DNA of 64,000 bases, taken from the NCBI GenBank assembly GCA_002269645.1, contig NIVC01003621.1:23014-87013 (forward strand), in the 5' to 3' direction. A program made the translations under genes and the position numbers. Positions 1-64,000 of the stretch are shown piece by piece; position 1 is the first letter of the stretch, and each line of letters starts with the position of its first letter. This stretch comes from Macrostomum lignano (lineage: Eukaryota). The notes under the pieces were generated by a model, which saw only the letters and a program-made list of their open reading frames with translations, did not search any database and was not told the origin of the DNA.

Positions 1-757
1 GAAAAAAAGTATTTTAAAGTTTCTTGGTTTTAAATCAGTTAATCTAGAAAAGTTTACTTAACTTTATAAGGCCTATCATTAAATTGCGTGTATTTGTACT
101 TTTATATCCGCCACCAAGTTTCCGTTATAACTAGTGCGGAAGCTCATAATGAGATATGCAGGTGAAACCAATTGACAAAGCCAGGGCAGTGCACTATGCT
201 GTACAGAGGAAGCCTACAGGGCAGCAAAAATCAATGCCGAACCTTCCCTACGCCTACCGCGACCCGCTCCAACTCGGCCGAAAGTGAAGGAAGTTAGGGG
301 GGGGAGTGAGGGGAAGGAGGAGAATTGGGCAGTAAGACCGAGTACACTGGCTAATGGAATGGAACAGCTCGCAGGTAAGGCAGGCGGAACCGATGTAGCA
401 GTGGTTCGGTTGTTGGAACATTTGAATTTTTCGCCTGGCCTTCTGCTGCACGGCTCGGTTGGCTCGCGCGGAAGGTTAGAAAGTATAGAACGAAAGAAAT
501 ATGGGTTGGAATCCGATGGCTTCAGCTCCCCTAAGTCAGAGGGAAGGGTGAGGGGCCAGATGGCGTGGCTAGTTAACTGCGGACACGGTCTGGTGGCTAA
601 AAACGAAGAACGTCCAGCGCAGGTTTTTTTAAGGCTAGCAGTTTCTTCGCAACCATTTTTTGTTTCGTCTCTTTTCTGCAGATCCTTTTCGTTTTTCTGA
701 TACTCTTTTTTAAAAATTAATTGTGCTCTACCCGACCGTAGAACTACTGAGATCACG

Positions 758-17236: not shown

Positions 17237-18800
17237 AGGCTTATCAAATATCAATGCCTGTTAATTAATTAGTTATCAGTAATTAATATAATATCCAATT
17301 TTAATTGCAGGTACAGATTACCCTATAATCTTAACTTATGAGTCCTTTTGTAACTCTATTAGGGCCTCGGCATGCTAGATGTGCATAGTAAGTCCGGACC
17401 AAGAGAAGGAAAGGAACTAAAAAGGAAGGAAAACCCCAGGATTGGATTTTGGGTTGGGGGTTGGGGGTTGTGGCGGTGTGCGCTTCGTAGAGGGACATAT
17501 TGGGGTGGTTGTTTTATTTTTAACCTATAGGAAAATGTGGGGTAGGGTTTAAGACTTTAAGGCCTAGAGTTTTAGGGCGGCTAGGACAGAGGGCCGGGCC
17601 TGCCTGGCTGGCCGTAAGGGCAAGAGGGATTTTCCTAACCCTCCTCGTTTTATTGCCCCTCAGATCGGAGTGTACACTAGCGATGACTCATCCAAATACT
17701 TCCTCCAATCAAGTGTCTAGCTTTAAATTCCGATTAAAGTCAAGCCAATTAAAAACTAACGATTTCGATCCACTGAGCAGTAGAAACCGAACAACTTTTA
17801 ATTGACCGTTTAACGGCAATAGCATTCATTCTTCCAACTCCTCAATTCCTAATTTACTAATCAGATCGTTTCAAATTTTGAGTTAACGGTATCCGTTCAG
17901 CTTTACTATATATTGCGGACGGACGGGCTCAGTAGCGGTATGGACAACTTAATGACTATTATTACGAGTTTGTCCTTGCTCTCTGTAGAAGCACGTCTGT
18001 TGATTTAAAATTAGCTGGATAACTATAATGCACTAATAAATTAGGCAGATAACTCGTATAGAAGTATGTATCAGTTCAAGACAATCCTTCACAAAAGTAC
18101 AGAATGTACTTTTTACTTTTTTGCTCGCTATAGGATCTAGAGTCCTGACCGGTTTTCAGATGACCCGAGATATCAGATCCTTCCCAATAGACGCGTCTGT
18201 GCGCATTACCCACTTTTCATTCCTAATGAAATGAAAGTCACGCCACCTATAGAAGTAACAATAAGTGAGCTTGATAGCAAAATAATTGGACCACTTGTTC
18301 ATGCACATTTAACATATTGTGCACCCCATATGAGCAGTGTTAGTGAATGCTTAACATTCGTTCCAATTCGTGTGGATCGCTATATAAATGAGGCATGAGT
18401 ATGACAAGACTGCCCCATCGATCAGGTTTCAGGTCAGGTGACAGCTTCCTAAGCTACGGATTTAGATTACTTGATTGGTAAGCTCAGCTGATGGACTACA
18501 TAAAAATGGCAGTTCAAATGCCGTTTAGCAAAGTGTATCTATAAAACTGCATGGGGCAGAGAAAAAGCAAGAGAAGAAGAACAGCAATTGTACGTACGCA
18601 GAGCGCAAAAAACGCATTGTACAGTAGCGCTACACAGGCAAGGCCGGCCTTATAAAAGCTCTGCAGTTTCAGAACACAGACAGCTTCGTAGATGGAGTTA
18701 TAAACAATAGACCCCTAGCTGTGCAGCTCATTATAGCGTGTGACTGAGAACCGCCATTGCTTAAATTTTCGCCCTAGATTCATCTAGATCAGAGTAAATC

Positions 18801-23299: not shown

Positions 23300-26157
<2,858 letters not shown>

Positions 26158-26204
26158 AGGCGCATGAATGCGAAGGCAGAGGAAGTGGAATCCTAATTTA
26201 CAAT

Positions 26205-29013: not shown

Positions 29014-32000
29014 CTAAAAGTGCACAGCAGCCAGAAGTTCATTCAGTCGAGCCTCATCGGGCGATCGATCCAGCACGCTGCAGAAGTAGGCAGCAATGTC
29101 CACGGAGTCCTGGGCGCACTGTTCTAGAAACGGCTGCTGCAGTAACTGCCGATATTTTGGTCGCTTTTTAACGTCTTTGCTCAGGCAGAGGTTGACAAAA
29201 TTGCGAGCCTCCTCTGAGAAGCGAGCGTCCGTTAGACGGGGAGGCTCGCTTTTAACAACCTGCGGATGGGTTCAGGCCGGTTCTTTGCACTGTACAGGTG
29301 GCCTGAGAGTGATTCTTTGTACTGTACAGGTATATTGAGGGTGATTCTCTGTTCTATACAGGTGGGTTGAGGGGCTGATGCCTTGTACTGTACAGGTGGG
29401 TTGAGTGGCTGATTCTTTGTACTGTACAGGTGGGTTGAGGGCGATTCTTTGTACTGTACAGGTGGGTTGAGTGGCTGATTCTCTGTACTGTACAGGTGGG
29501 TTGAGGGGCTGATTCTCTGTACTGTACAGGTGGGTTAAGGGGCTGATCTTTGTACCGTACAGGTGGGTTGAGGGGCTGATTCTCTGTACTGTACAGGTGG
29601 GTTGAGGGGCTGATCTTTGTACCGTACAGGTGGGTTGAGGGGCTGATCTTTGTACCGTACAGGTGGGTTGATATTTTAATAATAAACTTCTATTATATTC
29701 AGCAATTCCCAAACGAACTCTCTCACCTGCTCCAGCTGCTCAAACATGGTGCCCCACTGTTTGTAGGGAAACCGGCCGGTACACAGTTCGTACAACGAGA
29801 TGCCCAGCGACCAGACGTCGCTACGAACGTCGTAGCCTTCGCCGACGCGTTGATAGTCGATTCGTTCCGGCGCCATGTAGGGCCGGCAGCCGGCGTCCCG
29901 GGTCTTGGCAATGCTGTCCACCAGCTTGCCGGCGATGCCGAAGTCGCACAGCTTCACCCGGCCCGACCGGTCCGCCAGGATGTTGCTGGGCTTCACGTCT
30001 CTGAGGGGGGTGGGTGGTGAAGTCGGGATGGCCACTTGAAGTACCCGCGTCTGGATAGGGATCGGGTATTCGATGGGGAGTTATGGGGTCGGGAATCAAT
30101 GAGATCAGGGATTGCTATGGGATCGAAGATCAAAATGGGATCAGGGATTTTAATGAGATCAGGTATTACAATGAGATTGAGGATTACAATGAGATTGAGG
30201 ATTAGAATGGGATGGTGGATAAGAATGGGATGGTGGATTACAATGGGATGGTGGATTAGAATGGGATGGTGGATTACAATGGGATCAGGGATTACAATGG
30301 GATCAGGGATTACAATGGGATCGGGGATTACAATGGGATCAGGGATTGCCATACCGGTAGCATCGGGACCGCACTAGGATCAGAAGAGACTGGAAATTCC
30401 GATTTCCAGTTGCATAAAAAAGACCCCATTCTTCAACACGCCCTCTCACCTGTGCATCATGCCCAATTTCTCCTTGAGATAATTCAACGCTTTGACAGTT
30501 GCTAAGGAAACCTGGGCAATTACCACCTCGGGTATGACCTCGTTGAGATGATGATAGACAACCCGGTAGAATTTGTCTAGACTGGTGTCCATCAGCTCCA
30601 TGCAGATCCAACAGTCGCCCTCTTTGAATAATGCGCCATAGGACCTGGCCAAGCAAACGGTTTAGGGTTCGATGTTCGTTTTGTACACTTACAAGCGCTT
30701 TCCTAATCTGGCTCCACTTTTACTTCGCAATCTCACCAGTCACTCCCAATCTCACCAGTCACTCCCAATCGCAGTCAGTCACTCGAAATCTCACTCAGTC
30801 ACTCCCAATCTCACTCAGTCACTCCCAATCTCACTCAGTCACTCCCAATCTCACTCAGTCACTCCCAATCTCACTCAGTCACTCCCAATCTCACTCAGTC
30901 ACTCCCAATCTCACTCAGTCACTCCCAATCTCACTCAGTCACTCCCAATCTCACTCAGTCACTCCCAATCTCATTCAGTCACTCCCAATCTCACTCAGTC
31001 ACTCCCAATCTCACCAGTCACTCCAAATCTCACTCAGTCACTCCAAATCTCCCTCAGTCACTCCCAATCTCACCCAGTCACTCCAAATCTCACTCAGTCA
31101 CTCTAATCTCACCCAGTCACTCCAAATCTCACTCAGTCACTCTAATCTCACTCAGTCACTATAAATCTCACTCAGTCACTCCCAATCTCACCCAGTCACT
31201 CCAAATCTCACTCAGTCACTCTAATCTCACCCAGTCACTCCAAATCTCACTCAGTCACTCTAATCTCACTCAGTCACTATAAATCTCACTCAGTCACTCC
31301 CAATCTCACTCAGTCACTCCCAATGGCAGTCAGTCACTCTAATCTCACTCAGTCACTCCCAATCTCACTCAGTCACTCCCAATCTCACTCAGTCACTCCC
31401 AATCTCACTCAGTCACTCCCAATCTCACTCAGTCACTCCCAATCTCACTCAGTCACTCCCAATCTCAGTCAGTCACTCTCAAGCTCACTCAGTCACTCCC
31501 AATCTCAGTCAGTCACTCCCAATCTCACTCAGTCACGCCCAGTCGCAGTCAGTCACTCGAAATCTCACGTCAGTTACTCCCAATCGCACTCAGTCACTCC
31601 CAATCTCACTCAGTCACTCCCAATCTCACTCAGTCACTCCCAATCTCAGTCAGTCACTCCTAAGCTCACTCAGTCACTCCAAATCTCACTCAGTCACTCC
31701 CAAACTCACTCAGTCACTCCCAAACTCACCTAGCAATAAACGGACACTCGCAATTGACCACAACATTCAGTTCCAGCAGCATATTCTTCTGCTGGCGCTG
31801 ATCGACAGTAGATCGAATTCGTTTCACAGCCAGCACTGATCCTGTGGGCTTGAACCGCATCCTATTCACTGAGCCAAATGCTCCCCGACCGATCTCTCCC
31901 AGATCTTCCAGATCGTCAACGCTGAACTGTCGTTCCGGTTGATCTGGCAGCTTCAATTGGCCAACAGGCGGCAGACCGGGCAAGCCTGGCTGCGTCTGCA

Positions 32001-32118
32001 GCTGGCCAATAGGAGAGGCCGACTGAGGCGCAGCTCGATTCTGATTGGACGCCGTCAGTGGAAGCACAAATCGAGGCCGAGAAGTGCCTCCGCTACCAAT
32101 TCTGTTATTGTCTGACAT
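29014..32118 (-). CDS. MAP2K4: MAP kinase kinase 4 (MKK4/SEK1), 4 exons, 367 aa
   Basis: Exons 32118-31730, 30644-30450, 30000-29727, 29259-29014 (1104 nt). Motifs GEIGRGAFGSV, AVKRIR, HRDVKPSN, DFG and the MKK4 activation loop LVDSIAKTRDAG. Confidence 0.92.
29290..29670. repeat. About 34-bp minisatellite in MKK4 intron 3
   Basis: Tandem gtactgtacaggtgggttgaggggctgattctct variants. Confidence 0.9.
30060..30350. repeat. 18-bp minisatellite in MKK4 intron 2
   Basis: Tandem ggattacaatgggatcag variants. Confidence 0.85.
30743..31729. repeat. 20-bp minisatellite in MKK4 intron 1
   Basis: Tandem cactcccaatctcactcagt; the first unit on the minus strand coincides with the splice donor. Confidence 0.95.
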
Positions 32119-39390: not shown

Positions 39391-39656
39391 CAGACAAATT
39401 AGATACATTGCATGGTTAATGCAAAGAGAAAAGAGAAAAGTAAAAAGCTTTTGCTGCCACGGTAGAAATTTGTTTAGTTTATATTTGGGCATTAAGATAA
39501 TAACAAATTTTTGAGAGTAGCTTGTTTTAACAAGTTCTTTAAAATTCAAAATAGAATAAATTTATAAATAAACTATTGATTGGAGTAATTTTTAAAACAA
39601 TCGGCCTTTTCTCTTGTTTTAATAGTATCTGAAATCTGATTATTCTCAGAGATTTC

Positions 39657-40374
39657 TCAGAACACCTTGACGAATCTGCTCCAGGCGGGGTCCTTCTCGA
39701 TGGCGTCACCAACACTGGAATCCGAGTAGTCCAGCATGCGGCAGAGCCCAGCGTCCGTGTTCACCAGAGCCGCCCGGCACTCCCAGCGGGAGGCGCACGC
39801 GTCCAAACAGGTGAACTGCTCCTCGATCGTGATGTCGGTGTAGCAGTAAGTTGGCGTGATCTCCCCCAGCTGCAGGAACTCGGACCGCTTAAACACGCCG
39901 CTATTCGGGGTCTCGATCGGCTGGCACAGACAGAGCTTCGTCCCGCCAGACGTGGCGTCCATGAGTCCCGACTGCCGAATCGCCAGTCCGTCGTCGCTAT
40001 CGTTGATGTCGTCTGGACAGTCGTCCGACCAGTCTTCGTCGCCGAGCACGGGGAACTCGGTGCCGTTGGTCATCAGCCAGCCGGTTCTGTTGCGGTACCG
40101 CTCGACCAGAAAATCGGTGCCGCCCAGCCACAGCAGCCTCGGCCACAGGTGACGAGCAGCCCGCGCCCGCTCGATCCCGAGCGCCAGCTCTCCGTTGATG
40201 CCGTGGCAGAACCTGGCCGCGTCGCACCATGCAGGTCCTCTTGATGTCCGAGAGGTTCCAGAACAGGCAGAATCCATTCAGAGTGGTGTAGGGCGGCGGG
40301 CAAGCGAACAGAGGGTAACTGCAGATTACAGCAAATGCGAAGCTTGCAAAGAGCAGGAGGCCTTTCTTAGCCAT
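39657..40374 (-). pseudogene. Secreted C-type lectin plus PAN/apple-like domain protein with one frameshift
   Basis: Signal peptide MAKKGLLLFASFAFAVIC and CPPPYTTLNGFC lie in one frame. WCDAARFC, LWLGGTD, GWLMTNG and CLDACASRWECRAALVN..GLC lie in another. Removing TGCA at 40230-40233 restores KRTWCDAARFC. Confidence 0.7.
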
Positions 40375-41043
40375 TGCTTGCAGTTGGTCCTGTTCGGCGT
40401 CAGAGGCATGTCTTGTCGGAATGGGTTCCGACAAACGCTATTTAAGCGCTTCTTCTAGCAACCAGCAGATTTCCCTGAGCAGATAAACGATTCAGCAACT
40501 TAATCGCGATAAGGATAATGCATGGGACCTAAAGCAAAACCTGGGTTTTGCGATCCAGTCTGATTTTTTGAACAGTTCAATTTCAATAGAGACAATGAGG
40601 CTGTTTGAAATCATTTTGTCGGCATCGGTAAACAGCAAAGCAGCTTAATTTATAAAATAAAATCCAGCTCGATCGCTTATCTATCTTGCTCTATAGAATT
40701 GGAAAAAATATTCGATTTTAGAGGATTCAATTCCAATAAAATAGTTTTTATATTTCACGTACTGGGAGCAGATTAAATCCAGTTAAACACTGCTGAGAAT
40801 TCGTCAAATGAAATTATTCAGAGATGAATTAGCTTAATGATTAATTAGCTAAAGCATGAATTAGATTAGGGATGAATTAGCTAAGGGATGAGTTAGATAG
40901 ATAGATAAATAGATAGATAATGCGAAATGAAACCACGCACACAGTTGAAGCAAATTCACAATTTCTTTAACTCTAAGAAAAGAACCGAATTTTCGACCTA
41001 AACAGGGTCTTCGTCAGGGTATATTGTAAATAAAAAACTGTAG

Positions 41044-49299: not shown

Positions 49300-49959
49300 T
49301 TCGCTGCACACAAATGGATTGTTGAAAGAATTTGTTACTGGCAATCTAAAGCCTATATAGAACGGTTCTTTCTTAACCAAAAAGATTGCCAGTGCGTTGC
49401 CACTAGGGCTTGCTTCAATTTCAATGTGAGGCACAATTTTTCAGCAGCAATGGACTCATGTATATTTCATGGGCTGAATGAGCTGGGCCGAAAATCCCTA
49501 TTTACACTATAACCAGAAGAACTTCCCGGCGACAAACACTTAAACTGGCTAAGAAGTTGGACGGCCCAATGAGAGAATGCTAGATGTTGAAAAAATGGGC
49601 ATTGGGAAGAGACGACAGGGTGATGGCATACCCAAAGCTGTTGTCTTTCAACCTGGCTAGGTTGAAGGAAGCTCTTTCAGTGTGTGCTTTAAAAAATTGC
49701 AGTAAGTGCAGTTCATGAATACTAGGCCTATACTTTATATTTAATGTGTTTGTTTTTGGCTGCTCGTGTGTCACATTTGCTGTGCATGCTAAGCCGGCTG
49801 TGAAAATGAAAAGTGAAACCTCCAAGTCGAAGACCTGACTAAATATAAACCTTGTAAAACACGAAATTTTGTCTTTGCAAGGCTGCTCTGAATAAACATG
49901 GACTGGATGCTTTTCTTGCTAGCTTATTGTCGTAGCACAAGCAGCTTTGGGCTTTTCGC

Positions 49960-50240
49960 ACCAGGGGCTGTAGCAGCAGGGGCTTTAGCACCAGGGGCTT
50001 TAGCACCAGGGGCTTTAGCTCCAGGGGCTTTAGCACCAGGGGCTTTAGCACCAAGGGGCTTTAGCACCAAGGGGCTTTAGCACCAAGGGGCTTTAGCACC
50101 AAGGGGCTTTAGCACCAAGGGGCTTTAGCACCAAGGGGCTTTAGCACCAAGGGGCTTTAGCACCAAGGGGCTTTAGCACCAAGGGGCTTTAGCCCCAGGG
50201 GCTGTAGCAGCAGGGGCTGTAGCAGCAGGGGCTTTAGCAC
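49960..50240. repeat. 15/16-bp minisatellite
   Basis: Tandem ggggctttagcaccaa / ggggctttagcacca. Confidence 0.9.
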
Positions 50241-51185
50241 CAGAGACGCCAGAACATTTTCCGAGTGCCCTCGACTCAGTGCTATAAGATACTATCAGGA
50301 AGATAATGCAGAGTTTACTAGTAACAGCGTTTGTGTCTTGAAGATTTCTTGAAACTGTTTTAAAATTTCAAGCGGCCTTTGAAGAAGACCACCGAATATC
50401 TCTTTAAAAATTGATAACCAACAATTAAATAATCTTTTAGAAAATGTTACATGTAGCTAAATGTAGAAGAATTTAATGCAAGTCGATCCATTGCAGCTGC
50501 TGTTCCCACTACTAAAAGTAGTCAGATCACTCTCTATTTACCGTCGGCATAGAAAAAAAATCCTTGAACTCCAAGCAGTCGAATAATTTGCATAGATCAA
50601 ATTTTTATTGAATCGTAATTATTTTCATGTATATTTTTAATTTCATCAATACTTTTTTCGCTTATTTTTGCCAAGGACTACTTAAGTTGAAAGACGATCG
50701 ATATCCTTGTGTTACACTTTTACACAGTCAACTGCATGTATAAGAAATGAAAACCACCATTCTGCGGTGGTGGTTTTATTTATTTATTTATTTTTGAATA
50801 TTTATTTACTAAATAATGAAAAATTATTTAATAAATAAATAATTTCATTTATTCAATATTAAATATTTGAGGCAGAATCCTTATAAACTATTTATATTAC
50901 TTATAACAGTAGTTAAACCGAGTTTTAATCACAGCCAATCAGAAATTTTCTTCCCATTTGTTTAAATTTCCTAAACAAATCAAATTCTTTTGTTATAATT
51001 TTAGTAATTGTTAAAATGCGTCCCACCTTGCCCAAATTTTTCTGTATAAAAGGAATCAGGTTAACGCTAAAAAATATAACCTCGGCGCTCGATCTCAATA
51101 TTTGCTTTTAACTATTCTTGCGAGAATCTTTTAGCGAAACCAATCTAAATTTGGCTAAGACTTATCTCGTTATTTCTTTCATAAG

Positions 51186-51365
51186 ATAGGGAAACCAGAG
51201 GTCGTGGAGACCCAAAACCAGGATTCTAGATAGGGAAACCAGAGGTCGTGGAGACCCAAAACCAGGATTCTAGATAGGGAAACCAGAGGTCGTGGAGACC
51301 CAAAACCAGGATTCTAGATAGGGAAACCAGAGGTCGTGGAGACCCAAAACCAGGACTCTAGATAG
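51186..51365. repeat. 44-bp tandem repeat, about 4 copies
   Basis: tagggaaaccagaggtcgtggagacccaaaaccaggattctaga. Confidence 0.9.
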
Positions 51366-52052
51366 GAAAATTTGAGGTCGTAAAGACCCAGGACAGAGGC
51401 CAAAAAGGGGGAATCTCGAGGTCGTACAGACCCTAAGAAAGCCGTACAGGCTTACAATAGACATTAGGCATTAAGAGATTAGGTATTAGGGAAGTAGATT
51501 AGATACCGCTGGGCACCCTTGATCCCCAGAAAACGCTAGACTTTCGGACTGAACTAGAGTAGTATGAGTTTATGCAACTCTGCCGCACTTGCACTGCGGA
51601 GATAGGCGGTAATGTAAAAGGATAGGAGGGCGTAAAAGAGCCAGCTGAGATAGCCAATGGAAATAAGGGCGTGGGGTGGGTGTGATTGGCTGGGTGGTGA
51701 AACGCTTATGCAACTCTGCCGCACTGGGGGAGGCAGGTAGCAAAGCAAAGCATCGGAAGGTTTTGGAATAGCAGAGTAAACAAATTAAAAACAAGGTAGG
51801 CATGGCGTGGAAACGTCCACCTCAATTTGTGCCTGGCCTATGCAACTCCTCGGCGTCCCCCACTGTGTTTATCCTATAGCATGCTTATGCAACTCTGCCG
51901 CACTATTTGTCAGTGCGGAGTGAAATAGATAAGAGAGAGGCTCTGGTCTTCTTGGGTGTCTGCCTCTGGCAATTCTAATAAATGGGCAATAAACTTTGTA
52001 ACGGGTGCGGGGCTTGAGTGGAAAGGGTAGGGTTTGAAGTGGAGGTGAGGTT

Positions 52053-53299
52053 GGTGAGCTCTAAAACAGTTGTTCAACTCTGCCGCACTTTCACTGTGCA
52101 GGGACAGAGAGGTGAGCTCTAAAACAGTTGTTCAACTCTGCCGCACTTTCACTGTGCAGGGACAGAGAGGTGAGCTCTAAAACAGTTGTTCAACTCTGCC
52201 GCACTTTCACTGTGCAGGGACAGAGAGGTGAGCTCTAAAACAGTTGTTCAACTCTGCCGCACTTTCACTGTGCAGGGACAGAGAGGTGAGCTCTAAAACA
52301 GTTGTTCAACTCTGCCGCACTTTCACTGTGCAGGGACAGAGAGGTGAGCTCTAAAACAGTTGTTCAACTCTGCCACACTTTCACTGTGCAGGGACAGAGA
52401 GGTGAGCTCTAAAACAGTTGTTCAACTCTGCCGCACTTTCACTGTGCAGGGACAGAGAGGTGAGCTCTAAAACAGTTGTTCAACTCTGCCGCACTTTCAC
52501 TGTGCAGGGACAGAGAGGTGAGCTCTAAAACAGTTGTTCAACTCTGCCGCACTTTCACTGTGCAGGGACAGAGAGGTGAGCTCTAAAACAGTTGTTCAAC
52601 TCTGCCGCACTTTCACTGTGCAGGGACAGAGAGGTGAGCTCTAAAACAGTTGTTCAACTCTGCCGCACTTTCACTGTGCAGGGACAGAGAGGTGAGCTCT
52701 AAAACAGTTGTTCAACTCTGCCGCACTTTCACTGTGCAGGGACAGAGAGGTGAGCTCTAAAACAGTTGTTCAACTCTGCCGCACTTTCACTGTGCAGGGA
52801 CAGAGAGGTGAGCTCTAAAACAGTTGTTCAACTCTGCCGCACTTTCACTGTGCAGGGACAGAGAGGTGAGCTCTAAAACAGTTGTTCAACTCTGCCGCAC
52901 TTTCACTGTGCAGGGACAGAGAGGTGAGCTCTAAAACAGTTGTTCAACTCTGCCGCACTTTCACTGTGCAGGGACAGAGAGGTGAGCTCTAAAACAGTTG
53001 TTCAACTCTGCCGCACTTTCACTGTGCAGGGACAGAGAGGTGAGCTCTAAAACAGTTGTTCAACTCTGCCGCACTTTCACTGTGCAGGGACAGAGAGGTG
53101 AGCTCTAAAACAGTTGTTCAACTCTGCCGCACTTTCACTGTGCAGGGACAGAGAGGTGAGCTCTAAAACAGTTGTTCAACTCTGCCGCACTTTCACTGTG
53201 CAGGGACAGAGAGGTGAGCTCTAAAACAGTTGTTCAACTCTGCCGCACTTTCACTGTGCAGGGACAGAGAGGTGAGCTCTAAAACAGTTGTTCAACTCT
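52053..53299. repeat. 58-bp tandem array, about 21 nearly identical copies, subterminal in the Polinton
   Basis: ggtgagctctaaaacagttgttcaactctgccgcactttcactgtgcagggacagaga; period checked between 52081 and 52139. No spacers. Confidence 0.95.
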
Positions 53300-54172
53300 A
53301 GTGGTGAAACGCATATGCAACTCTGCCCTGGGTTTTTTCGTCCATAACTTGGGTGCGATTTCGCACCCTGTGCTAGATTTCAGGGTGCGATTTTCAAGAC
53401 CAGGATGCGCTGCACTGCTGCAGACAAAAACTGGTCTAACACTAATAACACTAAAGACGTACATAACACTAAATTGTGAAATCCGCATCACATCCTTTCT
53501 GGTGCGCTTTTCACACCCTGAGTCAAATTTCAGGGTGCGATTTTTAAGACCAGGATGCTATTCGCACCCATTCGCACAAAAAACCCAGACTCTGCCGCAC
53601 TTGCACTGCGGAGATAGGAGGGCCATGGTAGTATAGAGCCCTATTGCATTGGGTTTGAAAGTGGGATGGGGGAAATCCGAGAGGAGGGGATTAGGCGTTG
53701 TATGTGTCTGAGGTTGGTTAAGCAATGGCTCAGGCCTACGCACCTATGTCCCCCCCCTCCCCATTGTACACTGAGAGATATAAGGGGCTAGGCAGAGCTG
53801 TGGTTAGTTCAAGTCTTGCCGGCGGTGTAAAGGGAAAAATATAGGTATGAAAATCGGAAGGGTTGGATGATACAGTGTTCGGATCATAAAAGCTAGTTGG
53901 GGCTCACGACGCTCTCACTGCTAGGCTCTTCCGTTGATCTCAGTTTTACAACTGTATAGGCGGTTTATGGTACAGAACGAAGCCCAATTAATATAAAGTA
54001 AATATTGTGGGAAATTTTATTAGATAAAGGTCTGGGGTCTACTAAGCACAAAGTTTGTTATTGCGCCAGAATAATATCGGCGTGTACGAGTAATTATTAT
54101 TATTCTTCTAGTCTACCACAACAACTGCGCTGTGTACACCGTTCTTGGAAAGAAAATTAGGGAGGGGGGTTC

Positions 54173-54374
54173 GATTGGTCGGTTTGAGGAACAACTGGAT
54201 TGGGGTTGGTGGAAACAAATAATGATGTACATTTTATGCTGATTGGAGAGGATTGGTCGGTTTGAGGAACAACTGGATTGGGGTTGGTGGGGAACAAATA
54301 ATGATGTACATTTAATGGGGATTGGAGGGTACTGTATTCAGTGGTCAGTGTTCCGCAAATTGTATATATATAAA
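54173..54374 (+). promoter_or_regulatory. Candidate Pol II promoter: duplicated 78-bp unit with six inverted CCAAT boxes plus a TATA box
   Basis: Units 54173-54250 and 54251-54329 each contain three ATTGG. TATATAAA lies at 54367-54374, about 50 bp before ATG 54425. Confidence 0.5.
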
Positions 54375-54424
54375 TGAAGTGAAAAATAACTGCAGTCTTC
54401 CGAATTCTCACTTCCGCCGCAACA

Positions 54425-55591
54425 ATGAAGAAGATTAGCGACTCATATGCTACCTTTGAAGTCTGCCTAACTTGCAACAAGTGCGTTGTTGGATTTTTAA
54501 AGCCTGGCCATCACAAAGAGTGCAACAAGAGCACTTTCAACGTTTGCTGGCAGTGTGGCGTTGTAATGAAGCGTGAAGGAAAAGCGGGAAAATTCAAAGC
54601 TCACCGCGGGCATCAGCAGCTGCCTACTGGAGACAATGGAATGAAAAATTTAAGACGCATAGTTATGCAGAAAGCGCATCAAATAGCCGGAGAGCAAACC
54701 GCTGCACGACAGGCTCTCAGCCAATTAATAAACGGTGTAATTAGAGACGGCTGTAGCAGCGATGATGACTTTGTTGAGCAGCCGCAGCAGTCACAATTCC
54801 AACGCCCACTCGCTGCTCAGTCGGCTAGACATCCCCCGGATATCAGAGGAAAGCAGATCCGCATGGACAGTCCCGACAGCCTTCTGTACGAAGAGCCAAC
54901 CGATGAGGAGACTGAGGACAGCGACATTGCTATCAACAATGAGCAGCCTCCCAGCATCAGCGAGCAGCAGCAGCAGCAGCAGCCTCCATGCATCGGCGAG
55001 CAGCCTCTTAGCATCAGCGAGCGGCAGCAGCAGCAGCCTCCTAGCATCAGCGAGCAGCAGCAGCAGCCTCCAGGCATCGGCGAGCAGCAACAGCAGCCTC
55101 CCAGCATCAGCGAGCAGCAACAGCAGCCTCTTAGCATCAGCGAGCAGCAGCAGCAGCCTCCAGGCATCGGTGAGCAGCCTCCTAGCATCAGCGAGCAGCA
55201 GCAGCAGCCTCCAGGCATCGGCGAGCAGCCTCCTAGCATCAGCGAGCAGCAGCAGCAGCCTCCAGGCATCGGCGAGCAGCAACAGCAGCCTCCCAGCATC
55301 AGCAAGCAGCAACAGCAGCCTCTTAGCATCAGCGAGCAGCAGCAGCAGCCTCCAGGCATCGGCGAGCAGCTTTCAAGCATCAATAACATTGGTGAACAGA
55401 TTGCTCAGCCAAACATTATTGAAGAACCGGCTGGATTGGATTCCCTGATGGAGGTATTGGGAGACGGGGAATTTGAGGCGGCTAATAATGTCGTACCTCG
55501 ATACCAACTGCAACTGGTGCTGCCACCAGTAATTGGAGCAGGATATATTGTGAAAATTGAAAATGACAGCATTATTTTTGTGTCTCGTTGA
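54425..55591 (+). CDS. Polinton ORF, 388 aa, Cys/His-rich N-terminus (possible zinc finger) and Gln/Pro-rich repeats
   Basis: ATG-initiated ORF with CLTCNKC..HHKEC..CWQC..HRGH, an acidic stretch and QQQQPPSISE repeats that keep the frame. Confidence 0.6.
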   Translation: MKKISDSYATFEVCLTCNKCVVGFLKPGHHKECNKSTFNVCWQCGVVMKREGKAGKFKAHRGHQQLPTGDNGMKNLRRIVMQKAHQIAGEQTAARQALSQLINGVIRDGCSSDDDFVEQPQQSQFQRPLAAQSARHPPDIRGKQIRMDSPDSLLYEEPTDEETEDSDIAINNEQPPSISEQQQQQQPPCIGEQPLSISERQQQQPPSISEQQQQPPGIGEQQQQPPSISEQQQQPLSISEQQQQPPGIGEQPPSISEQQQQPPGIGEQPPSISEQQQQPPGIGEQQQQPPSISKQQQQPLSISEQQQQPPGIGEQLSSINNIGEQIAQPNIIEEPAGLDSLMEVLGDGEFEAANNVVPRYQLQLVLPPVIGAGYIVKIENDSIIFVSR

Positions 55592-56277
55592 GCAAGCGAA
55601 TTCTTGGTCACTTGGTCATTCTTGGCTATTGTGTATCTTAAAAATTCAGTTTAACTTACATTTTTTACTTTAATTTGTACTTTAGCTTTTTTATTTACAA
55701 TAAGCCAAGAAGTGTTTTTTGTTTAAATCAATAGCGATTAGCAAAGCTAGATAGAATATTTCGAGCATCATAGCTTTTAGTAGTATCAATCTACAATTAA
55801 ATAAGCCAATCATGTAATTGTTGACTCAAATATGAATACAAGTTTTTGAAAATCTAGAACTGCCTCAAGCAGCACCGGTCGTAGCCCCAGTTTTCAACCT
55901 TTTTTGGCAGCACCGGTCGTAGCCCCAGTTTTCAACCTTTTTTGCCTGCGGTAACTGGCAGGGGCTATGAAATTCATTTTGACAATCAAAAGCTTACCCT
56001 GATAGCATTGTAATTGTAAGTCTAAATACTTTGATGCAGAAAAATTGAAGTAAAAATATACTGCTAGCATTCGATTTTTTACTTCATTATGACTGGATAA
56101 GTTGGAATTTCGTTTCTATTTAATCAATTTCAATTAGTTTAGTAAAATTAGTAAAACTAATTTCAATTAGTTTCTCGCATGAATAAAATAGTTTGAAAGT
56201 TTAATTTGTATCCATACTTTGTATTAGAGATGTATTTGACCACTCAACTAATTACAGCTAAGGGAACCAAATAACAG

Positions 56278-58236
56278 GCAAAGTGGCAGAGCAGGACTCA
56301 AGCGAGTTTTCAGAGTCCGATTGTGACTGCTGGTCAGAATCAGAGAGCGAAGATAATTGGTCTGAATCAAGTTCCGGGGCAGACTACTCGGAGAGTGATT
56401 TCGATGGGCTCTCTGAAACCGACACCAACAACACTAAGCAAGATTGTGCTAGTAGCGGTTCCAGTCTGATCGACACCGGCGGTGGTAGTGCAGGAAGCGA
56501 TACCGGTGGCGGCAGTGCAGGAAGCGACACCGGCGGCGGCAGTGCAGGAAGCGATACCGGTGGCGGCAGTGCAGGAAGCGACACCGGCGGTGGTAGTGCA
56601 GGAAGCGACACCGGCGGCGGCAGTGCAGGAAGCGATACCGGCGGCGGCAGTGCAGGAAGCGACACCGGCGGCGGCAGTGCAGGAAGCGACACCGGCGGCG
56701 GCAGTGCAGGAAGCGACACCGGCGGTGGTAGTGCAGGAAGCGACACCGGCGGCGGCAGTGCAGGAAGCGACACCGGCGGCGGCAGTGCAGGAAGCGACAC
56801 CGGCGGCGGCAGTGCAGGAAGCGACACCGGCGGCGGCAGTGCAGGAAGTGAACTCAGCTTGATCGAAAACAACGGTGCCAGCAATATTCATCCTTATCGT
56901 GAGTCAACAACATTTTTAATTTCAGCCTTAAGTTATTTAATTCCTGGGTGCATTCGAAGTTTTGTATTTAAAAATCGAGAAATTCGATTTAAGTGTGCTT
57001 ATTGAGTCTAAATTTCATTATCATGGAATACCATCTTTTGAGTAACAGAAAATAAGCAAAGCTGTTAATTTTTCATTTTAGACATTCAGCAAGTAGCAAG
57101 TGCGCACAACGAAACTCTGGTGGTGTATCGAATTTCCGTGCCAAGCGATGCACCATGTGACCCATTTGAACTCGCCCGACGGAGCAGGGAAGCAATACAG
57201 CGAATTGTATTCGAGAAGATGGTGAATCCAAATCTTTTAGTTAGAGCGCAGCTAAAAATGAGCATCCGAATGAACAGAATCCAAGCTGGTGAAGTGGTGA
57301 ACCAGGAAGAAAGATGGGTAAGCACTCGTTTGCAACCTGTCAATGACGCCGCTTGCTTTGATGATTGGTGGAAGCAGCAGATTGATGGTTGCGAAGGCAT
57401 CATTGAGAAGATGAACACAAATGGCAGTGGTTGGGTGATTGTGCGCGTCAACTGCATCGACTTGAATATTGCGGTTGGTCAAAGACTGCGCTTCTACTCT
57501 GGTCACGCAAGCAATTTTGAATTACCTCCTCTGCTGAAGGCAAAAAAGCCGTCATCAATCCTCCTAGTACTGGCTCTGATTGTTTTTTGTATGCCTGCCT
57601 TGCAGTGCTGCATCACGGTGATGAGAATTTGAGGAAAAACCCTCAAAGGCTTTCTACTTACAAGGACTGGTTGAACGATATCAATCTTTCAGGAATTTCC
57701 TTACCCGTTGGACTCAACCAGCTAAATCGAATCGAATTACTGAACCCGAGGTTATGTTTTGTAGTTTTTTCTTGGTCAAGCAGTAACGGTGTCAGTGTGC
57801 TGAGGCAGCCACGAGTTGAAGTCGCATGCAGTCGCAAAGTAGTTCTTCTCCTACTATTGAACAAATCAGCTAACAAGGATGAAGAGGATAAACACTGGTG
57901 CGGAATTGTGAGATAGGCTACTAAACAGTAAAAGCGGTCTTTACCACAGAAAATGGTGTGAACGCTGCTTGAGCTCTTTCGTAACTGATCAGAAGCTAAG
58001 TGAGCACAGAGAGCAGTGCTATCGCTCTAATGAGTTTGCTGTCAAGGAACGAGTTCCTACTGAGAAGCGCAGCGTGCTGTCTTTTCAAAACTACTTCAAA
58101 ACTATTGAAGCACCGTTCGCTATCTATGCTGATATTGAAGCATTTAATTCTCCGCTAGGCCCCCACACTCGAGAGGTCATGCATCAGAAGGTTGAGGAAA
58201 TGGAGGTCAGCGACAATGAGCAAGTCTGCAGCACAC

Positions 58237-58271
<35 letters not shown>

Positions 58272-60921
58272 CATGTACAAGCAAGACCAGATGAGGGCAT
58301 GGTAACTGGCAAAACCGTCTTTATTTCCGAGCATCTGCCTGCAGCGGGTGGATTTCTACTCGTTGCTCGTGAAGGCATGAAGGGACCACCACTCAAGGAT
58401 CAAGGTCATGTGAAGTTGGTCTCCAGTTCAAATCCATTGGAGTGTATGGAAACGTTTCTTCATGAGCTGGAACGCGTGGCTCGAGAAGTCTATGACTGGA
58501 ACAGAAGGCACAGCTACCAAACGGCTGAAGCAGACACTACTGCTAGTCAAATCTTCAGTGAATCCTCCAACTGTCATTACTGTGATCGACAGTTTACTGA
58601 CACTAATGACAAGCACTATGACCATGATCATCTGACTGGAAAATTCAAAGGCGCCGCATGTTCACGGTGTAACAAATTAGCGCAACTTCGCCGAAGATTT
58701 CTGCCGATTTTCTTCCATAATCTCCGAAATTATGACATGCACCTCCTGTTTTCAACAGCGTTAGGAAATATGAAAAACTGGAAGCTGAGTGTCATTCCTC
58801 AGACTTCTGAACGCTATATGTCTCTTCGAATAGATTTCCAATCGCCGAAATCACTCTACCGAAAGGCAAAAAGAAAACAATTTTCTTCACTCTGCAGTTC
58901 CTCGATTCATTCCAGTTTTTAAACGCGGGTCTAGACAAACTGATTCGCAACTTACCTCTCCAGGACAGAAAATTCACTCAGCAAATGAAAAGCTGCTTTC
59001 CAAAGTTAACTAATGAAACATTGTCTATCAAGGGAGTCTTTCCCTATGATTTCGTCAAATCCCCCGCGAATTTGGCAGTGACCGAACTTCCGAGCAGAGA
59101 AGAGTTTTTCAACTCTCTGACAAAGACAGCTTGCAGTGAGGAGAGCTGTGCTCATGCGCGCAAAGCCTGGGAGCAGATCGAAGCAAAAAATTTGCACGAC
59201 TACATGCTTGCCTACCTGCAGCTTGACATCCGTCAACTTGCCGATGTTTTCAGAACTTTCGCCGTTTGAGTCTCCATGATGACGGTCTTGACCCAGCCCA
59301 CTACTTTACTACACCAGGTCTATCATTTGATTCCGCGCTGAAATCCGCGCCAACACCGCTCCAGTTGCTCGACGATGCTGAGAAGTACAGACTCTTTGAG
59401 CTTGGCATTCGTGGAGGAATGACCTTCACGAACGTTCATCATGTTACTGCCGGACCAGTCACCAGTCACCAGTCGTCAGATGGTGCAGATTCATCAAGCG
59501 CAGCTTCTAATGCCGAGACAAATTCTTTGCTCCCCGTAGACATGAATAATCTCTACGGGCAAGCGCTGTCCGAAAAACTACCCGTCAGTGACTTTGAGTG
59601 GCTTAGTGAAGAAGAACTGTGTGAATGGACAGAAGAGAAGCTACTTAAATTGGATGACGATGGTCCAGTTGGCTACCTATTTGAGGTTGATTTGGAATAT
59701 CCAGATGTAATCCACACGCAGACACAAGATTTGCCATTTGCCCCCGAGAAGGCCGCGCCTAAGCTCGAAGAGTTTCCGCCATTCATGAAACGTCTTTGGG
59801 GCGAATTGAACACTCGCAACGAGCCGTACAAAGGCTGTGTGAAACTTTTACTCACATGTCATGACAAGGAATCCTACGTCGTACATTTCCGAATTTTGAA
59901 GTTCTACTTGCGTCACGGTATGCGACTAAAAAAGATCCGAAGAGCTATTCGATTTTGTCAAGCTGCAATTTTCCAAGCCTACATTGACAGAAACAGCAAA
60001 AAGCGCTCAGTGGCTACAACGGAATTCGAAAAAGACTATTACAAACTGAAGAATAACTCCCTGTTCGGCAAAACGATGGAAAACGTACGGAAGAGGCTCA
60101 GTGTTCGAATTTCTAACAACGAGGAGCAGTCCGAAATCTATTCATCGCGTCCGAATCTTAAGGACTTTACGATTGTGACTCAAGACTTAGTAGTTTTTCA
60201 ATTTTTCAAGACATCAGTCACTCTTGACCGCCCAATCTACGTTGGTCAATGTGTTTTAGATGACTCTAAGCTGGCGATGTACCGATTGTACTATGGAAAG
60301 CTAAAGCCAACATTTGAGAATCCTGCTCTCCAACAAGGAGTTTCCCTATGCGGTGGGGACACCGATTCCTTCTTTCTGTGCTTTAAAAACATCGATGTTC
60401 AGAGTGCTGTTCTACCAGAACTCATTCGCCAGCGATTGCTAGATACCTCAAACTTCCCGGCCGACCATCAATTCCGATCCGATGATCTAAAAGCCAAGTT
60501 AGGCTGCATAAAGGACGAATCTGCAGGCAACCCCCATCGTGAATGGATCCTTTTGAGACCAAAACTATACTCGATGAAGGCCGAGTCTGGAGGGAAGAAG
60601 GCAGCCAAAGGTGTTCAGAAGAGTGTGCTGCGGGCAGAAATCACACACGATGACTACATGCAGGCGTTTGCCAGTTTGAAGGAGCTTCGCGTCTTGACAC
60701 GCAGAATCGCTAGCCGACGACACAGAGTAGTCACTTTAGAGCAACAGAAGCGTGCTCTGACTGTATGGGAGGACAAGCGTGCGTGGACTTCCCCAAACCA
60801 AAGTCTTCCGTATGGGCACTTTGCTTTAAGAGACCCCTGCCGCCACAGCTGCCGCCGTTACAATCAAGAAGCACCTCAACTAGCTGCTGATCAGGCTCCC
60901 AAGCAAATGAGGATGCAATAA
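56278..60921 (+). CDS. polB: Protein-primed DNA polymerase B with endonuclease VII-like insert; predicted upstream exon; 4 frameshifts
   Basis: Motifs YADIE (Exo I), FFHNLRNYD (Exo II), DMNNLYG, KLKNNSLFGKT, GDTDS, and CHYC..DHDHLTGKFKGAACSRCN. Frameshifts near 57545, 57910, 58870 and 59257. A predicted intron 56899-57081 joins the acidic/GS-repeat exon in phase. Confidence 0.9.
56472..56849. repeat. 27-bp coding minisatellite (DTGGGSAGS x about 14)
   Basis: gacaccggcggcggcagtgcaggaagc units; variants are synonymous in the plus frame. Confidence 0.9.
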
Positions 60922-61276
60922 CATACATTTGACTAGTGCGTACTTTGAATTGAGCATTTGCTCAGCTTTGCATTTTGGTTTTTGGAACGCAATGTACATT
61001 TTGTCTGCATAAATGCTATAGTACTTTTCTTTAACGTGCCATTGCTTTTTCAAAACTTGCTTAACTTTTATGAGTGTTAGCATTTTCATTTTCTTTCTTT
61101 TCCTATGTTCTTTTAATATTAGTATCAATTTTCGCTGTGTTGCAGTTTGCTGACAATTTTTTTAGCATCTTTTGTAGCCAAAAAATAAAACTAGTAAACA
61201 AGGCATATTAAAGTTAAATTAAAGTTTTTTTCTGCTAGTTCTTGTCGGAAGATTAAAGACGGGTAATTATTGTGCT

Positions 61277-61861
61277 TTATTTTAGTTGCATAAGTGTGTT
61301 AACAGAGCGAAACAGGGAAGAACTGTCGGATTTTAGCATACGCAGAGATTTTGCCCCACTTAGAATATAAGAAGCATTATGAAAAAGCAAGCATTTACAA
61401 TACTTAAGTTGACAAACTAAAGCTGAAAATGTTTCTGGTTCATACTGGGCTTTGGGCAAAACTTTAACAAGTTCAGTAAGCGGTAGCGCATTTTGGAGCT
61501 TAAAACGTCCATGAGCAGTAATAGTTTTAATTCGAACACAAATAGTTTGATGAGGCAGCAGTTGATCCGGCACTCTCCGATGCAGCATAGCCATGAAGCG
61601 ACGGGCAGCCCTTTTGGCGTCTGCGTGGGTCTTGGCGCCACAGATGCTCAGTTGCCCAGTAGGGTAGAGTAGCAGAGTCACTCTGGGACTTCGCATCCGC
61701 TTGATGAGCACCCGGGGCCAGACGGGCCGGTAGATCACATGAGCCATGCTGAGAGCCAGTTCCCGTAGAGGCAGCTGGGCGCCCCTGCCACCATCCAGTC
61801 TCAGATCCACTCCGCCAACCAGATTGCTCACTCTTAGGGCTGTAGCTGCAGGTGGACTCAT
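61277..61861 (-). CDS. Divergent TATA-binding protein (TBP-fold) homolog inside the Polinton
   Basis: Two TBP repeats: VSNLVGGVDL..LPLRELA..VIYRP..MRSPRVTLLLYPTGQLSICGAKTHADAKRAARRF and LPLTELV..AQYEPETFSALV..CLLFHNASYILSGAKS. These align by eye with TBP LQNIV..[29 protein letters not shown]..AARKY and YEPELFPGLI..LLIFVSGKVVLTGAK. Intact and intronless; ATG at 61861. Confidence 0.85.
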   Translation of the reverse strand: MSPPAATALRVSNLVGGVDLRLDGGRGAQLPLRELALSMAHVIYRPVWPRVLIKRMRSPRVTLLLYPTGQLSICGAKTHADAKRAARRFMAMLHRRVPDQLLPHQTICVRIKTITAHGRFKLQNALPLTELVKVLPKAQYEPETFSALVCQLKYCKCLLFHNASYILSGAKSLRMLKSDSSSLFRSVNTLMQLK

Positions 61862-61934
61862 TTTGATCCTTGACTTCTTCACCAAATCTTCTGCCAACTT
61901 CACTGCCCCTGTGCCACGGACACTGCTCGCTTCT

Positions 61935-62376
61935 TAAGTTGATGCAGAACTTTGGCTTAAGCCAACTGTAGTGCAGCAATGAATTTCTCACTGCACAGCC
62001 AGTATCTGAATCTTTAATCGAGGGTGCTCCCAAATCTTCTAGGTTATAAACCTGTCTACCAAGCAGCTCAGTCAGGAAAATAGACTTCCTTTCCCCATTT
62101 GTCCATATCGGACCACTGGCAATCCTCAGAATGTCTTCCGCCAGTTCCATGTACGGACGGGTTCCATCACTCCACTTAAACTGGTGCAGACTCTTTGATA
62201 GCTGTCTGTAGCAAACTCGCATGTCAGTGAGACTCTCTCCATGGATACGGAGGTGCGTACACATGGTGAGCAATTCGGTAGCTTCCCGCTCTGACTTGAA
62301 CAACTGCCAACTCTTTCACAACAAATCTTTTGCTTGTGCTGTTGCACGGGAATCCTTGGAAGTCAATGTAGTTCAT
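61935..62376 (-). CDS. Conserved Polinton ORF with DEDD/DnaQ exonuclease-like motif; one frameshift near 62240
   Basis: MNYIDFQGF..FVVKELA..HHVYAPPYPW / ..LHQFKWSDG..IWTNGERK..VYNLEDLGAP..CAVRN. I recognise the pattern from Maverick ORFs. The 3' end is uncertain. Confidence 0.55.
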
Positions 62377-62500
62377 GATGCAGCTTTCCCTCGAAATTTC
62401 GGAGTCAGTCCCCTTCTTATATACTTTTCTGGCAGGCAGTTTCAGCCAGGCTGTGTTGCTCCCGTACCCCTTGACTAGACTCTCCTGTTCTTTCTCCAGT

Positions 62501-63095
62501 TCACTCCCTCTGCTGTTGCCATTTTTTTTTAACTGATTTACCAACAGCGGAAAGCGGAACATTAAGCTTTTTCTGCTGCAGCAAATCGATGAACTCGTTC
62601 CACCCAACTGGTTCACGCTCACATGGCGAATCCCTCACTGCGTGCTGAATCAAGTCCAGTATGTTTGAGGAAGGATTGACGTGCCTGTGATTTCCACCTC
62701 CCCGTTTTCACAAACTCGAATCAGCTCTGGATTGGTGGACAGGATCGTCCATAGACTGCGAGCCCTGGTTTTGAATTTCTGTGGCACCGACTTGCTGATC
62801 TTCTCATCCCAGGTGTTCATCTGTGGTGTCTCTGTTTTCATCAACTTGGCTTCAGTATTGCGTGCTCCTTCTTTTCCAGCGTGCTTGCGTCTGGCCAGCA
62901 AACTTTGCATTGCACTTTGATACATGGTGGTTTTCACATCTTCTGGACAATCTTCGGCATATACAAGATATCATCGCATTTCTTCTGAGCCTGCTTCAAG
63001 TTAGCGTCAGTGCTATTCTCATTTGGCTTCAAATTCTGCATCAACATCTCATACTCTGCTTTAGGAATCAGAACCATTTCTGAAAATTTGTTCAT
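62501..63095 (-). CDS. Conserved Polinton hypothetical protein, 2 frameshifts
   Basis: MNKFSEMVLIP.. / ..KISKSVPQKFKTRARSLW..GEVEITG / SSNILDLIQ..PVGWNEFIDLL..NVPLSAVGK*, reconstructed across three frames. Confidence 0.55.
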
Positions 63096-63398
63096 TTTGC
63101 TTCTTCTTCTTTACCAGCTTAAGCAGAATCGGGAGTATTTTAATGAAGCCAGCCTTCAACAAGTCTGTCTTTCTTCTTTTGTGAGTAATCTTTCGAATTA
63201 TCTCTTTTGACTTTGCAAGAACAGCTTTTCATCGAGCGAAAACGATATATTGTTTTGTAAGAGATTATGGCAGGCCTCGACAAGAAAATAACGCACTTCT
63301 TTTGGACAATTTTTTATCAACAGCCGCTTGAAGCGCACGGTATATTTAGGTGACGCAAGAACCGCAAAAATACTTGCATGTGAATCAAGCACTTCCAT
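63061..63398 (-). CDS. Small conserved Polinton/adintovirus protein next to the ATPase, one frameshift near 63205
   Basis: MEVLDSH..KRLLIKNCPKEVRYFLVEACHNLLQNNI..FLQS / KEIIRKITHK..LLKAGFIKILPILLKLV; basic and amphipathic. Confidence 0.5.
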
Positions 63399-63439
63399 AG
63401 CGATGAAAACAATAGCTGATAAAAACAAGCTTCACTTTC

Positions 63440-64000
63440 TTAAGCAAATACAAGATGGGGTCGCTGGTTGGGCAGAATTCTGGCCCGCACTCGCAGCTCA
63501 TCGGGAGTTGATGGGTGAAAGTCTAGGAACAGGTAAGGCTCCCCTGCCCTGCGCGGTCACGTGCTTGAACACTGACAGCAGAAAGCCGGGCTTCTCTGTA
63601 AAGCACTGCCTGCCCAGTGCTGCAATCTGCAGCTGGTCTCTGGGGTTTTTCAAGATAGCTAAGTACATTACATTCAAGCTCATTGTTCGCGACTCTTTTC
63701 CCTTAAAAAATATATTCTGAGTCAGCATCACCAAGAAGCACGGCAAGTGATGTGCGATTCCTGTGAAAAAATTTCGCATTGAAGCAGAGTTTGAAGTTTC
63801 CTCTATTAAGTCATCGAAAAACAACCAGGTCATTGGGCCTAAGTGCTGCCTCGATGTTGGTGGGAAATCCCTGGCGCAGCTGCACACCTAGGCTGCTCAG
63901 TTCTGCATGGCCTGCCTGTGAGATCCCATAGTACACAGAACTCTGCCAGGCTTCACATCAAACATGACGTCTCTGTACTGGATCAGGTGTTTGATGAAGG
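63440..64000 (-). CDS. A32/FtsK-like DNA packaging ATPase, 5'-truncated by the window, with frameshifts
   Basis: Walker B region NDLVVF/DDL, FFTGIAHH..FLVMLTQNIF, RTMSLNVMYLAILKNPRDQLQIAALGRQ, and C-terminal YLFLDFHPSTPDELRVRARILP after a shift. At least three frameshifts. Confidence 0.85.

What the first reader, a model, noticed from the sequence alone, without database searches (positions are those of the whole stretch)
51558..64000. Endogenous Polinton-like virus arm with unusual gene content
Seen: gene order terminus - 58-bp array - Cys/His, Gln-rich ORF(+) - pPolB(+) facing TBP(-) - DEDD-like(-) - two conserved ORFs(-) - ATPase(-), tightly packed on the minus strand. Established: pPolB plus packaging ATPase is the Polinton/adintovirus core. 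Inference: integrase, protease and capsid genes should follow beyond 64000.
Basis: partly seen in the sequence, partly recalled or inferred. Interest (0 to 1): 0.75.

Follow-up and report, generated by a model that had tools for sequence, protein, structure and literature searches.

The report
Flatworm Polinton with its own TBP
This is the left arm of a virus-like Polinton element, likely in a flatworm genome, that encodes its own altered TATA-binding protein, a gene found in all ten long relatives examined, and likely uses it to switch on its own packaging and capsid genes from a private promoter box.

Summary
Confirmed. The stretch is the left arm of a Polinton/Maverick: AGTAGT end at 51558, 58-bp array, an intron-containing pPolB broken into five frames, then TBP, a DEDD-fold gene, two conserved genes and the packaging ATPase on the minus strand. 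The closest named proteins are from Macrostomum lignano. A sister gene model places a double-jelly-roll capsid gene before the ATPase. Integrase, protease and the right end were not seen for this copy.

The content is normal for its clade: 16 of 82 related loci carry TBP, including all 10 metagenome loci of 10 kb or more. All keep the TFIIB-contact glutamate and have Pro where TBP has its first DNA-wedging Phe. Sub-groups carry different boxes upstream of gene starts (TTAAGC or ATAAAC). Here TTAAG(C/A) precedes 3 of 4 starts, which is weak evidence. This copy looks recombinant inside TBP at about residue 118.

The likely mechanism is a viral TBP with changed specificity that drives late genes; this is inferred, not shown. 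The scan noted Polinton TBPs before in other genomes. In print I found only figure-legend labels.

The parts
51558..51563 (+). Left terminus, AGTAGT = the (AGT)2 end motif of Mavericks
   Evidence: Sequence; end motif as described in PMC8097293 (passages)
51558..53621 (+). Non-coding terminal region, probably the left terminal inverted repeat, built on a repeated 16-nt motif
   Evidence: 24 motif matches, all on +, 0.04 expected; a further partial copy at 53589. The inverted partner is not in the window, so 'TIR' is inferred
52053..53299 (+). 58-bp tandem array, 21.5 copies
   Evidence: TRF 99% matches
54425..55591 (+). ORF1, 388 aa: Cys/His-rich start, Gln/Pro repeats. It may be a 5' exon of the polymerase gene or a separate early gene. 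A TATATATA run lies about 55 nt upstream
   Evidence: no Pfam hit; atlas hits only 0.83, a lead at most; no LxCxE motif; TATA run
56262..56898 (+). Upstream exon of the polymerase gene (Asp/Ser-rich, 27-bp array); 5' boundary unknown
   Evidence: Open frame; in phase with the next exon
56899..57081 (+). 183-bp GT..AG intron
   Evidence: Skipped by one contig of run X11, whose RNA status is a guess; splice sites and phase 1/1
57082..60921 (+). Protein-primed family B polymerase with N-terminal region, OTU-type Cys/His pair, exonuclease with EndoVII insert, and palm; four frame changes in this assembly
   Evidence: motifs YADIE, DMNNLY, KxxxNSLFGK and GDTDS are present
61277..61861 (-). Intact 194-aa TBP-like gene, both repeats
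61507..61508 (.). Probable crossover point inside TBP (residue 118/119, start of the second repeat)
   Evidence: Identity to P0001 is 108 of 112 before and 33 of 72 after; contigs of 4 of 4 runs stop matching here and summed depth steps up to the right
61900..62376 (-). DEDD/Maelstrom-fold gene in two frames; the 3' end is approximate. First motif is D-x-Q, not D-x-E
   Evidence: 68-72% identical to P0010; atlas structure TM 0.64-0.68 to RNase_T clusters, Maelstrom feature score 0.88, all under the naming bar
62504..63095 (-). Conserved Polinton gene of unknown function, in three frames
   Evidence: Profile from 6 related loci hits three pieces, best E 5.6e-10, others 0.007 and 0.019
63064..63398 (-). 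Small basic gene after the ATPase, in two frames; probably the counterpart of the small gene at this place in relatives
   Evidence: Position as in L026, L028 and L051; the profile did not hit it
63443..64000 (-). A32/FtsK-type packaging ATPase, C-terminal three quarters, in several frames; Walker A lies just beyond the window
   Evidence: Profile E 1.2e-29 and 1.9e-7; P0011 residues 57-81 map to 63998-63924 and its Walker A precedes them
63439..63444 (-). Candidate promoter box CTTAAG, 45 nt before the small basic gene
63118..63123 (-). Candidate promoter box CTTAAG, about 27 nt before the first ATG of the conserved gene and 45 nt before the second
62416..62423 (-). TATATAAG, 47 nt before the DEDD-fold gene (a near-canonical TATA box)
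61933..61961 (-). Two CTTAAG boxes, 99 and 76 nt before the TBP start, inside the DEDD-fold coding sequence

Best explanation
This is the left arm of a Polinton/Maverick, likely integrated and multi-copy, whose TBP-like protein likely binds a non-standard box in front of the element's packaging and structural genes and would recruit host TFIIB and RNA polymerase II, giving the element its own late-gene switch. Shown: the gene identities, the TBP fold, the conserved residues, the spread of TBP through the clade, and the clade-specific upstream boxes. Inferred: binding of the box by this TBP, TFIIB recruitment, and early-to-late timing. This copy is likely a recombinant that joins a rarer polymerase arm plus the TBP C-half to a commoner module of TBP N-half through ATPase.
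For: (1) TBP is a regular gene of the clade. A TBP profile built without these loci hits 16 of 82 polymerase-selected loci, including 10 of 10 metagenome loci of 10 kb or more; Pfam confirms 3 of 3 tested. (2) The same long loci carry integrase (rve plus chromo by Pfam in 2 of 2 tested), capsid and ATPase. (3) The window and all 16 locus TBPs keep the E146-equivalent glutamate, the main TFIIB contact (PMC10005294, passages), and both C-terminal Phe. All have Pro at the Phe57-equivalent column. (4) Upstream boxes are group-specific and strand-specific: TTAAGC before 22 of 39 starts in group A (1.3 expected, 1 antisense, 20 not at a stop codon); ATAAAC before 18 of 37, 12 of 21 and 14 of 24 starts in groups B, C and D; the other group's hexamer before 0-2 starts. 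The residue before the Pro follows the groups: Arg in A, Lys in B-D, Trp in the flatworm type. (5) The distant locus L001 has no TBP hit and neither box. (6) Precedent: herpesvirus vTBP with TATT boxes (PMC7498053, passages). (7) Mosaicism.
Against: No binding or transcription-start data exist. In the window the box evidence is weak: 3 of 4 starts, P about 0.014, with the motif widened after inspection to TTAAG(C/A); all four sites lie in coding sequence, and CTTAAG is not enriched in the whole window (20 found, 24.5 expected). Two TBP-bearing loci tested singly show neither box (L021 0 of 12, L007 0 of 5). Loci within a group are related, so only about four groups count as independent. In groups A-D the box also precedes the integrase and other genes, so 'late' is not established. 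The window has boxes before TBP itself, and the DEDD-fold gene and ORF1 have ordinary TATA boxes. The tree does not join the flatworm TBPs with the 16 others under strong support. Integrase and the right end of this copy were not seen. Most genes are split in this assembly.
Confidence: 0.6

Rival explanations
1. The boxes are real promoters but are read by a host factor or another element protein. The viral TBP acts elsewhere, for example as a decoy that ties up host TFIIB or as a stand-in when host TBP is limiting.
For: The TFIIB-contact stirrup is the best conserved part, and one wedge Phe is lost. TRF2 lost such a Phe and does not bind TATA (PMC10005294). A divergent Giardia TBP prefers single-stranded DNA (PMC12209930, abstract and passages). 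L021 and L007 have TBP but neither box.
Against: Box type follows the TBP sub-group and its stirrup residue. The boxes are TATA-like and mostly lie 35-60 nt before the ATG. Three of the four wedge positions stay aromatic.
Confidence: 0.22
2. This copy is a decaying fossil, and its TBP and boxes no longer do anything.
For: The polymerase has four frame changes, and the ATPase and three neighbouring genes have further breaks. 96% of vertebrate Maverick loci are degraded (PMC8097293).
Against: The TBP frame is intact. The array is 99% homogeneous. Short-read contigs of four runs differ from the window by small indels at 23 places (12 listed, 11 not shown), so many breaks are probably assembly errors or peculiar to this copy. 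One contig shows a spliced intron.
Confidence: 0.12
3. It is a truncated arm or an integrase-less pPolB element rather than a full Polinton.
For: Integrase, protease and the right repeat were not observed for this element (no genome). In L026 and L028 the integrase follows the conserved ORF directly, a place held here by the DEDD-fold gene and TBP.
Against: The (AGT)2 end sits beside repeat-rich host DNA. A capsid gene adjoins the ATPase in a sister model. All 10 long relatives have an integrase hit, 3 of them outside the profile's training set.
Confidence: 0.06

Closest known systems
Polintons/Mavericks = adintoviruses (Starrett et al. 2021, PMC8502044; read: abstract, sections 3.1-3.2, start of 3.3, 3.4; its one text supplement had no TBP hit; figures not visible)
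   Same: pPolB with an OTU-type region, FtsK/A32 ATPase, double-jelly-roll capsid in sister copies, (AGT)2 end, and exchange of modules between lineages.
   Different: TBP appears there only as a label in the Fig. 5 legend for MELD viruses and related elements, in the section on non-animal datasets, without analysis. Intact vertebrate Mavericks were reported as intronless (PMC8097293, passages); this polymerase gene has an intron. Alpha or Beta class was not tested.
Nematode Polintons with swapped polymerases (Jeong et al. 2023, PMC10748475; passages)
   Same: The polymerase is exchanged between otherwise similar elements; some of those polymerases carry a nuclease insert (HNH or VSR).
   Different: Here the apparent crossover lies inside the TBP gene. 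That paper has no mention of TATA. Homology of the EndoVII insert to their HNH insert was not tested.
Cellular and archaeal TBP (PF00352)
   Different: Only 21-26% identity, no N-terminal extension, Phe57 to Pro, Phe74 to Tyr, second-repeat Asn/Val to Thr/Thr; not nested among cellular TBPs in the tree.
Beta/gamma-herpesvirus vTBP (ORF24, BcRF1, UL87) with TATT late promoters (PMC7498053; passages)
   Same: Works like: a virus-encoded TBP with a non-canonical box and host polymerase II.
   Different: vTBP is a large multi-domain protein that binds polymerase II directly within a six-protein complex. The Polinton protein is a bare core; no homology beyond the fold was tested.
Giant-virus TBP-like proteins
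   Same: Top fold hits in BFVD (E 1e-10).
   Different: 9-19% identity for the TBP-named and top hits. Those viruses encode their own RNA polymerase (recalled); none was seen in this arm.

Membership tests
Polinton/Maverick (adintovirus) | Protein-primed family B polymerase | tested here: met
   all pieces and catalytic motifs are present, in five frames
Polinton/Maverick (adintovirus) | A32/FtsK packaging ATPase | tested here: met
   E 1.2e-29; the profile's member L058 has a weak Pox_A32 hit
Polinton/Maverick (adintovirus) | (AG)3 or (AGT)2 end motif | tested here: met
   AGTAGT at 51558, directly before the first terminal motif; left end only
Polinton/Maverick (adintovirus) | Double-jelly-roll major capsid protein | tested here: inconclusive
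   Not in the window. It adjoins the ATPase in sister model P0011; P0279 folds like Sputnik, PBCV-1 and mavirus capsids (E 2.7e-13, model pLDDT 65.7)
Polinton/Maverick (adintovirus) | rve integrase | not testable with these tools
   No hit in the window; no genome; hits in 10 of 10 long relatives
Polinton/Maverick (adintovirus) | Adenain/Ulp1 protease and single-jelly-roll minor capsid | not testable with these tools
   No hit in the window. A protease profile hits 7 related loci, 5 of them its training set
Polinton/Maverick (adintovirus) | [quoted passage not shown] | not testable with these tools
   The right end lies outside the window
TBP family | Two-repeat saddle fold | tested here: met
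TBP family (canonical TATA-binding) | Four intercalating phenylalanines | tested here: not met
   Two of four kept (F145, F160); the other columns hold Pro49 (next to Trp48) and Tyr66
TBP family (canonical TATA-binding) | C-terminal stirrup glutamates for TFIIB | tested here: met
   E141 and E143 in YEPETF; binding itself not tested
TBP family (canonical TATA-binding) | Binds TATA DNA and supports initiation | not testable with these tools
   Needs bench work
DEDD 3'-5' exonucleases | RNase H-like DEDD fold | tested here: inconclusive
   Atlas model of P0010: TM 0.64-0.68 to RNase_T clusters, under the naming bar
DEDD 3'-5' exonucleases | First catalytic motif D-x-E | tested here: not met
   D-x-Q in the window and in P0010; D-x-E in four group A relatives

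The most novel reading that the evidence does not exclude
A whole clade of Polintons runs an orthogonal transcription switch: an element-encoded TBP, marked by a shared Phe-to-Pro change in its first stirrup, whose target box has co-diverged with it (Arg-Pro with TTAAGC, Lys-Pro with ATAAAC, Trp-Pro with CTTAAG). In this flatworm family the polymerase arms are swapped at a crossover inside TBP that keeps the specificity half with the structural genes it controls.
Probability: 0.4. Interest if true: 0.85.

Novelty: new variant of a known kind. Interest (0 to 1): 0.6.

Why it matters
How animal Polintons turn on their capsid genes, and whether they need a helper virus, is open. A self-encoded TBP with its own box would give a helper-independent switch that can be tested directly with one small protein and short oligonucleotides. 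Natural TBP/box pairs with different specificities would also show how TBP specificity can change. The element itself is an ordinary Polinton, and this scan has seen Polinton TBPs before. What this report adds is the clade-wide survey, the shared Pro, the second box type and the crossover inside TBP.

Full report
Setting. The window is repeat-rich animal-type DNA with host-like exons to the left. No genome is held. The closest named proteins to the element's TBP are Macrostomum lignano models, so the host is inferred to be a Macrostomum flatworm. Twenty public runs of one organism hold the stretch 56870-64000, fifteen of them with half or more of its words.

The observation. The element starts with AGTAGT at 51558, the (AGT)2 end described for Mavericks (PMC8097293, passages). 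A 16-nt motif begins 15 nt later and recurs 24 times, always on +, never to the left; 21 of these copies lie in the 58-bp array. ORF1 is real but unannotated. The polymerase is spread over five frames that together cover residues 40-1249 of a 1281-aa relative, with exonuclease and polymerase motifs intact and an EndoVII insert shared by most listed relatives. An upstream exon is joined by a 183-bp GT..AG intron, in phase, and skipped by one contig of a run guessed to be RNA. On the minus strand lie the ATPase, a small basic gene, a conserved gene of unknown function, a DEDD-fold gene and an intact TBP. All of these but TBP are split by frame changes. Contigs of four runs differ from the window by small indels at 23 places, so many breaks are probably assembly errors or belong to this copy alone.

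What lies beyond 64000. The gene model P0011 contains, in order, a capsid C-terminus, the ATPase N-terminus with Walker A, the conserved gene and the TBP N-half, and is 79-92% identical to the window pieces. Its first 45 residues retrieve two 427-aa proteins that align with the capsid proteins of related loci; P0279 folds as a double jelly roll. So a capsid gene probably follows the ATPase here. Integrase and protease were seen only in relatives.

The boxes. Earlier notes of this scan described a TATAAAC box in other genomes, which led me to test upstream regions. An unbiased hexamer scan found TTAAGC in group A (5 loci) and ATAAAC in groups B, C and D (4, 2 and 2 loci), and nothing significant in L021, L007/L074 or the TBP-less L001. 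The signal survives the removal of stop-codon sites, is absent on the opposite strand, and holds in 8 of 9 single loci tested with their group's motif (L049, with 4 starts, P 0.056). In the window, TTAAG(C/A) precedes 3 of 4 minus-strand starts (6 sites in 3 kb, about 2 expected; P about 0.014, motif widened after inspection), and the fourth gene has TATATAAG.

Mosaicism. The window's TBP matches P0001 at 96% up to residue 118 and 46% after it. The Logan relatives give 75-81% and 45-50%, and the closest C-half is that of P0010 at 58%. Contigs from all four runs stop matching at 61507-61508, and summed depth is several-fold higher to the right (X1: 64-96 against 300-891; not a copy number). The simplest reading is that several polymerase arms share one structural module and are exchanged inside TBP. 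This resembles the polymerase swaps in nematode Polintons (PMC10748475, passages) and the module exchange in adintoviruses (PMC8502044, section 3.1).

Mechanism. Shown: gene identities, fold, conserved residues, clade-wide spread and group-specific boxes. Inferred: ORF1 and the polymerase, with an ordinary TATA run before ORF1, are made first by host machinery; the viral TBP then binds the element's box, recruits host TFIIB through its intact stirrup, and drives the packaging and structural genes, as herpesvirus vTBP does at TATT boxes (PMC7498053, passages). Protein-primed replication, packaging and integrase-mediated insertion follow from established Polinton biology and were not tested. I put this at 0.6, a decoy or other role for TBP at 0.22, a dead copy at 0.12 and a non-Polinton or fragment at 0.06.

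Novelty. The element is a Polinton. In my searches (and the term searches listed under Tried and rejected), TBP in such elements appears in print only as figure-legend labels in Starrett et al. and its preprint. This scan has noted it five times in other genomes. Verdict: a new variant of a known kind, interest 0.6.

Noticed in passing
window 61527-61900 (-): The frame of the DEDD-fold gene stays open for about 110 codons across the first half of TBP and stops 20 nt from the crossover point; P0010 is also read in that frame over the start of TBP. Dual coding could be another reason why the TBP N-half is so conserved.
   Followed up: no
window 51570, 51706, 51885 (+) and 61293 (-): TTATGCAA occurs three times in the terminal region and once at the end of TBP; it resembles a C/EBP-type site (recalled, not tested).
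   Followed up: no
window 54173-54334 and 53359-53558: Two short direct duplications (about 78 and 150 nt apart) upstream of ORF1, in the likely promoter region.
   Followed up: no
window 51184-51390 and 49949-50242: A 44-bp array and a 15/16-bp array just left of the terminus, unrelated to the terminal motif; taken as flank.
   Followed up: no
P0008, P0009, P0011: Three M. lignano gene models fuse the TBP N-half to unrelated sequence and lose similarity at or shortly before residue 118; these may be truncated copies or gene-calling artefacts.
   Followed up: partly
P0160 and P0280: A related polymerase and a related capsid protein both list a longest contig of 14,411 bases, which suggests one near-complete element in a related animal; the contig could not be fetched.
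   Followed up: no
L058:7095-8158, L059, L052, L049, L050: Two small conserved ORFs (no Pfam hit in L058, the only locus tested) lie between the polymerase and TBP in group A; they are candidates for partners of the TBP and had no hit in the window.
   Followed up: partly
window 700-6100, 18800-21800, 23300-26200, 29600-32100, 39600-40400: Host-like exons: myosin/paramyosin-type coiled coil, a monocarboxylate-transporter-like gene, a ubiquitin-like membrane protein, a MAP-kinase-kinase-like gene and a lectin-like frame, among many tandem arrays (names recalled from the translations, not tested).
   Followed up: no
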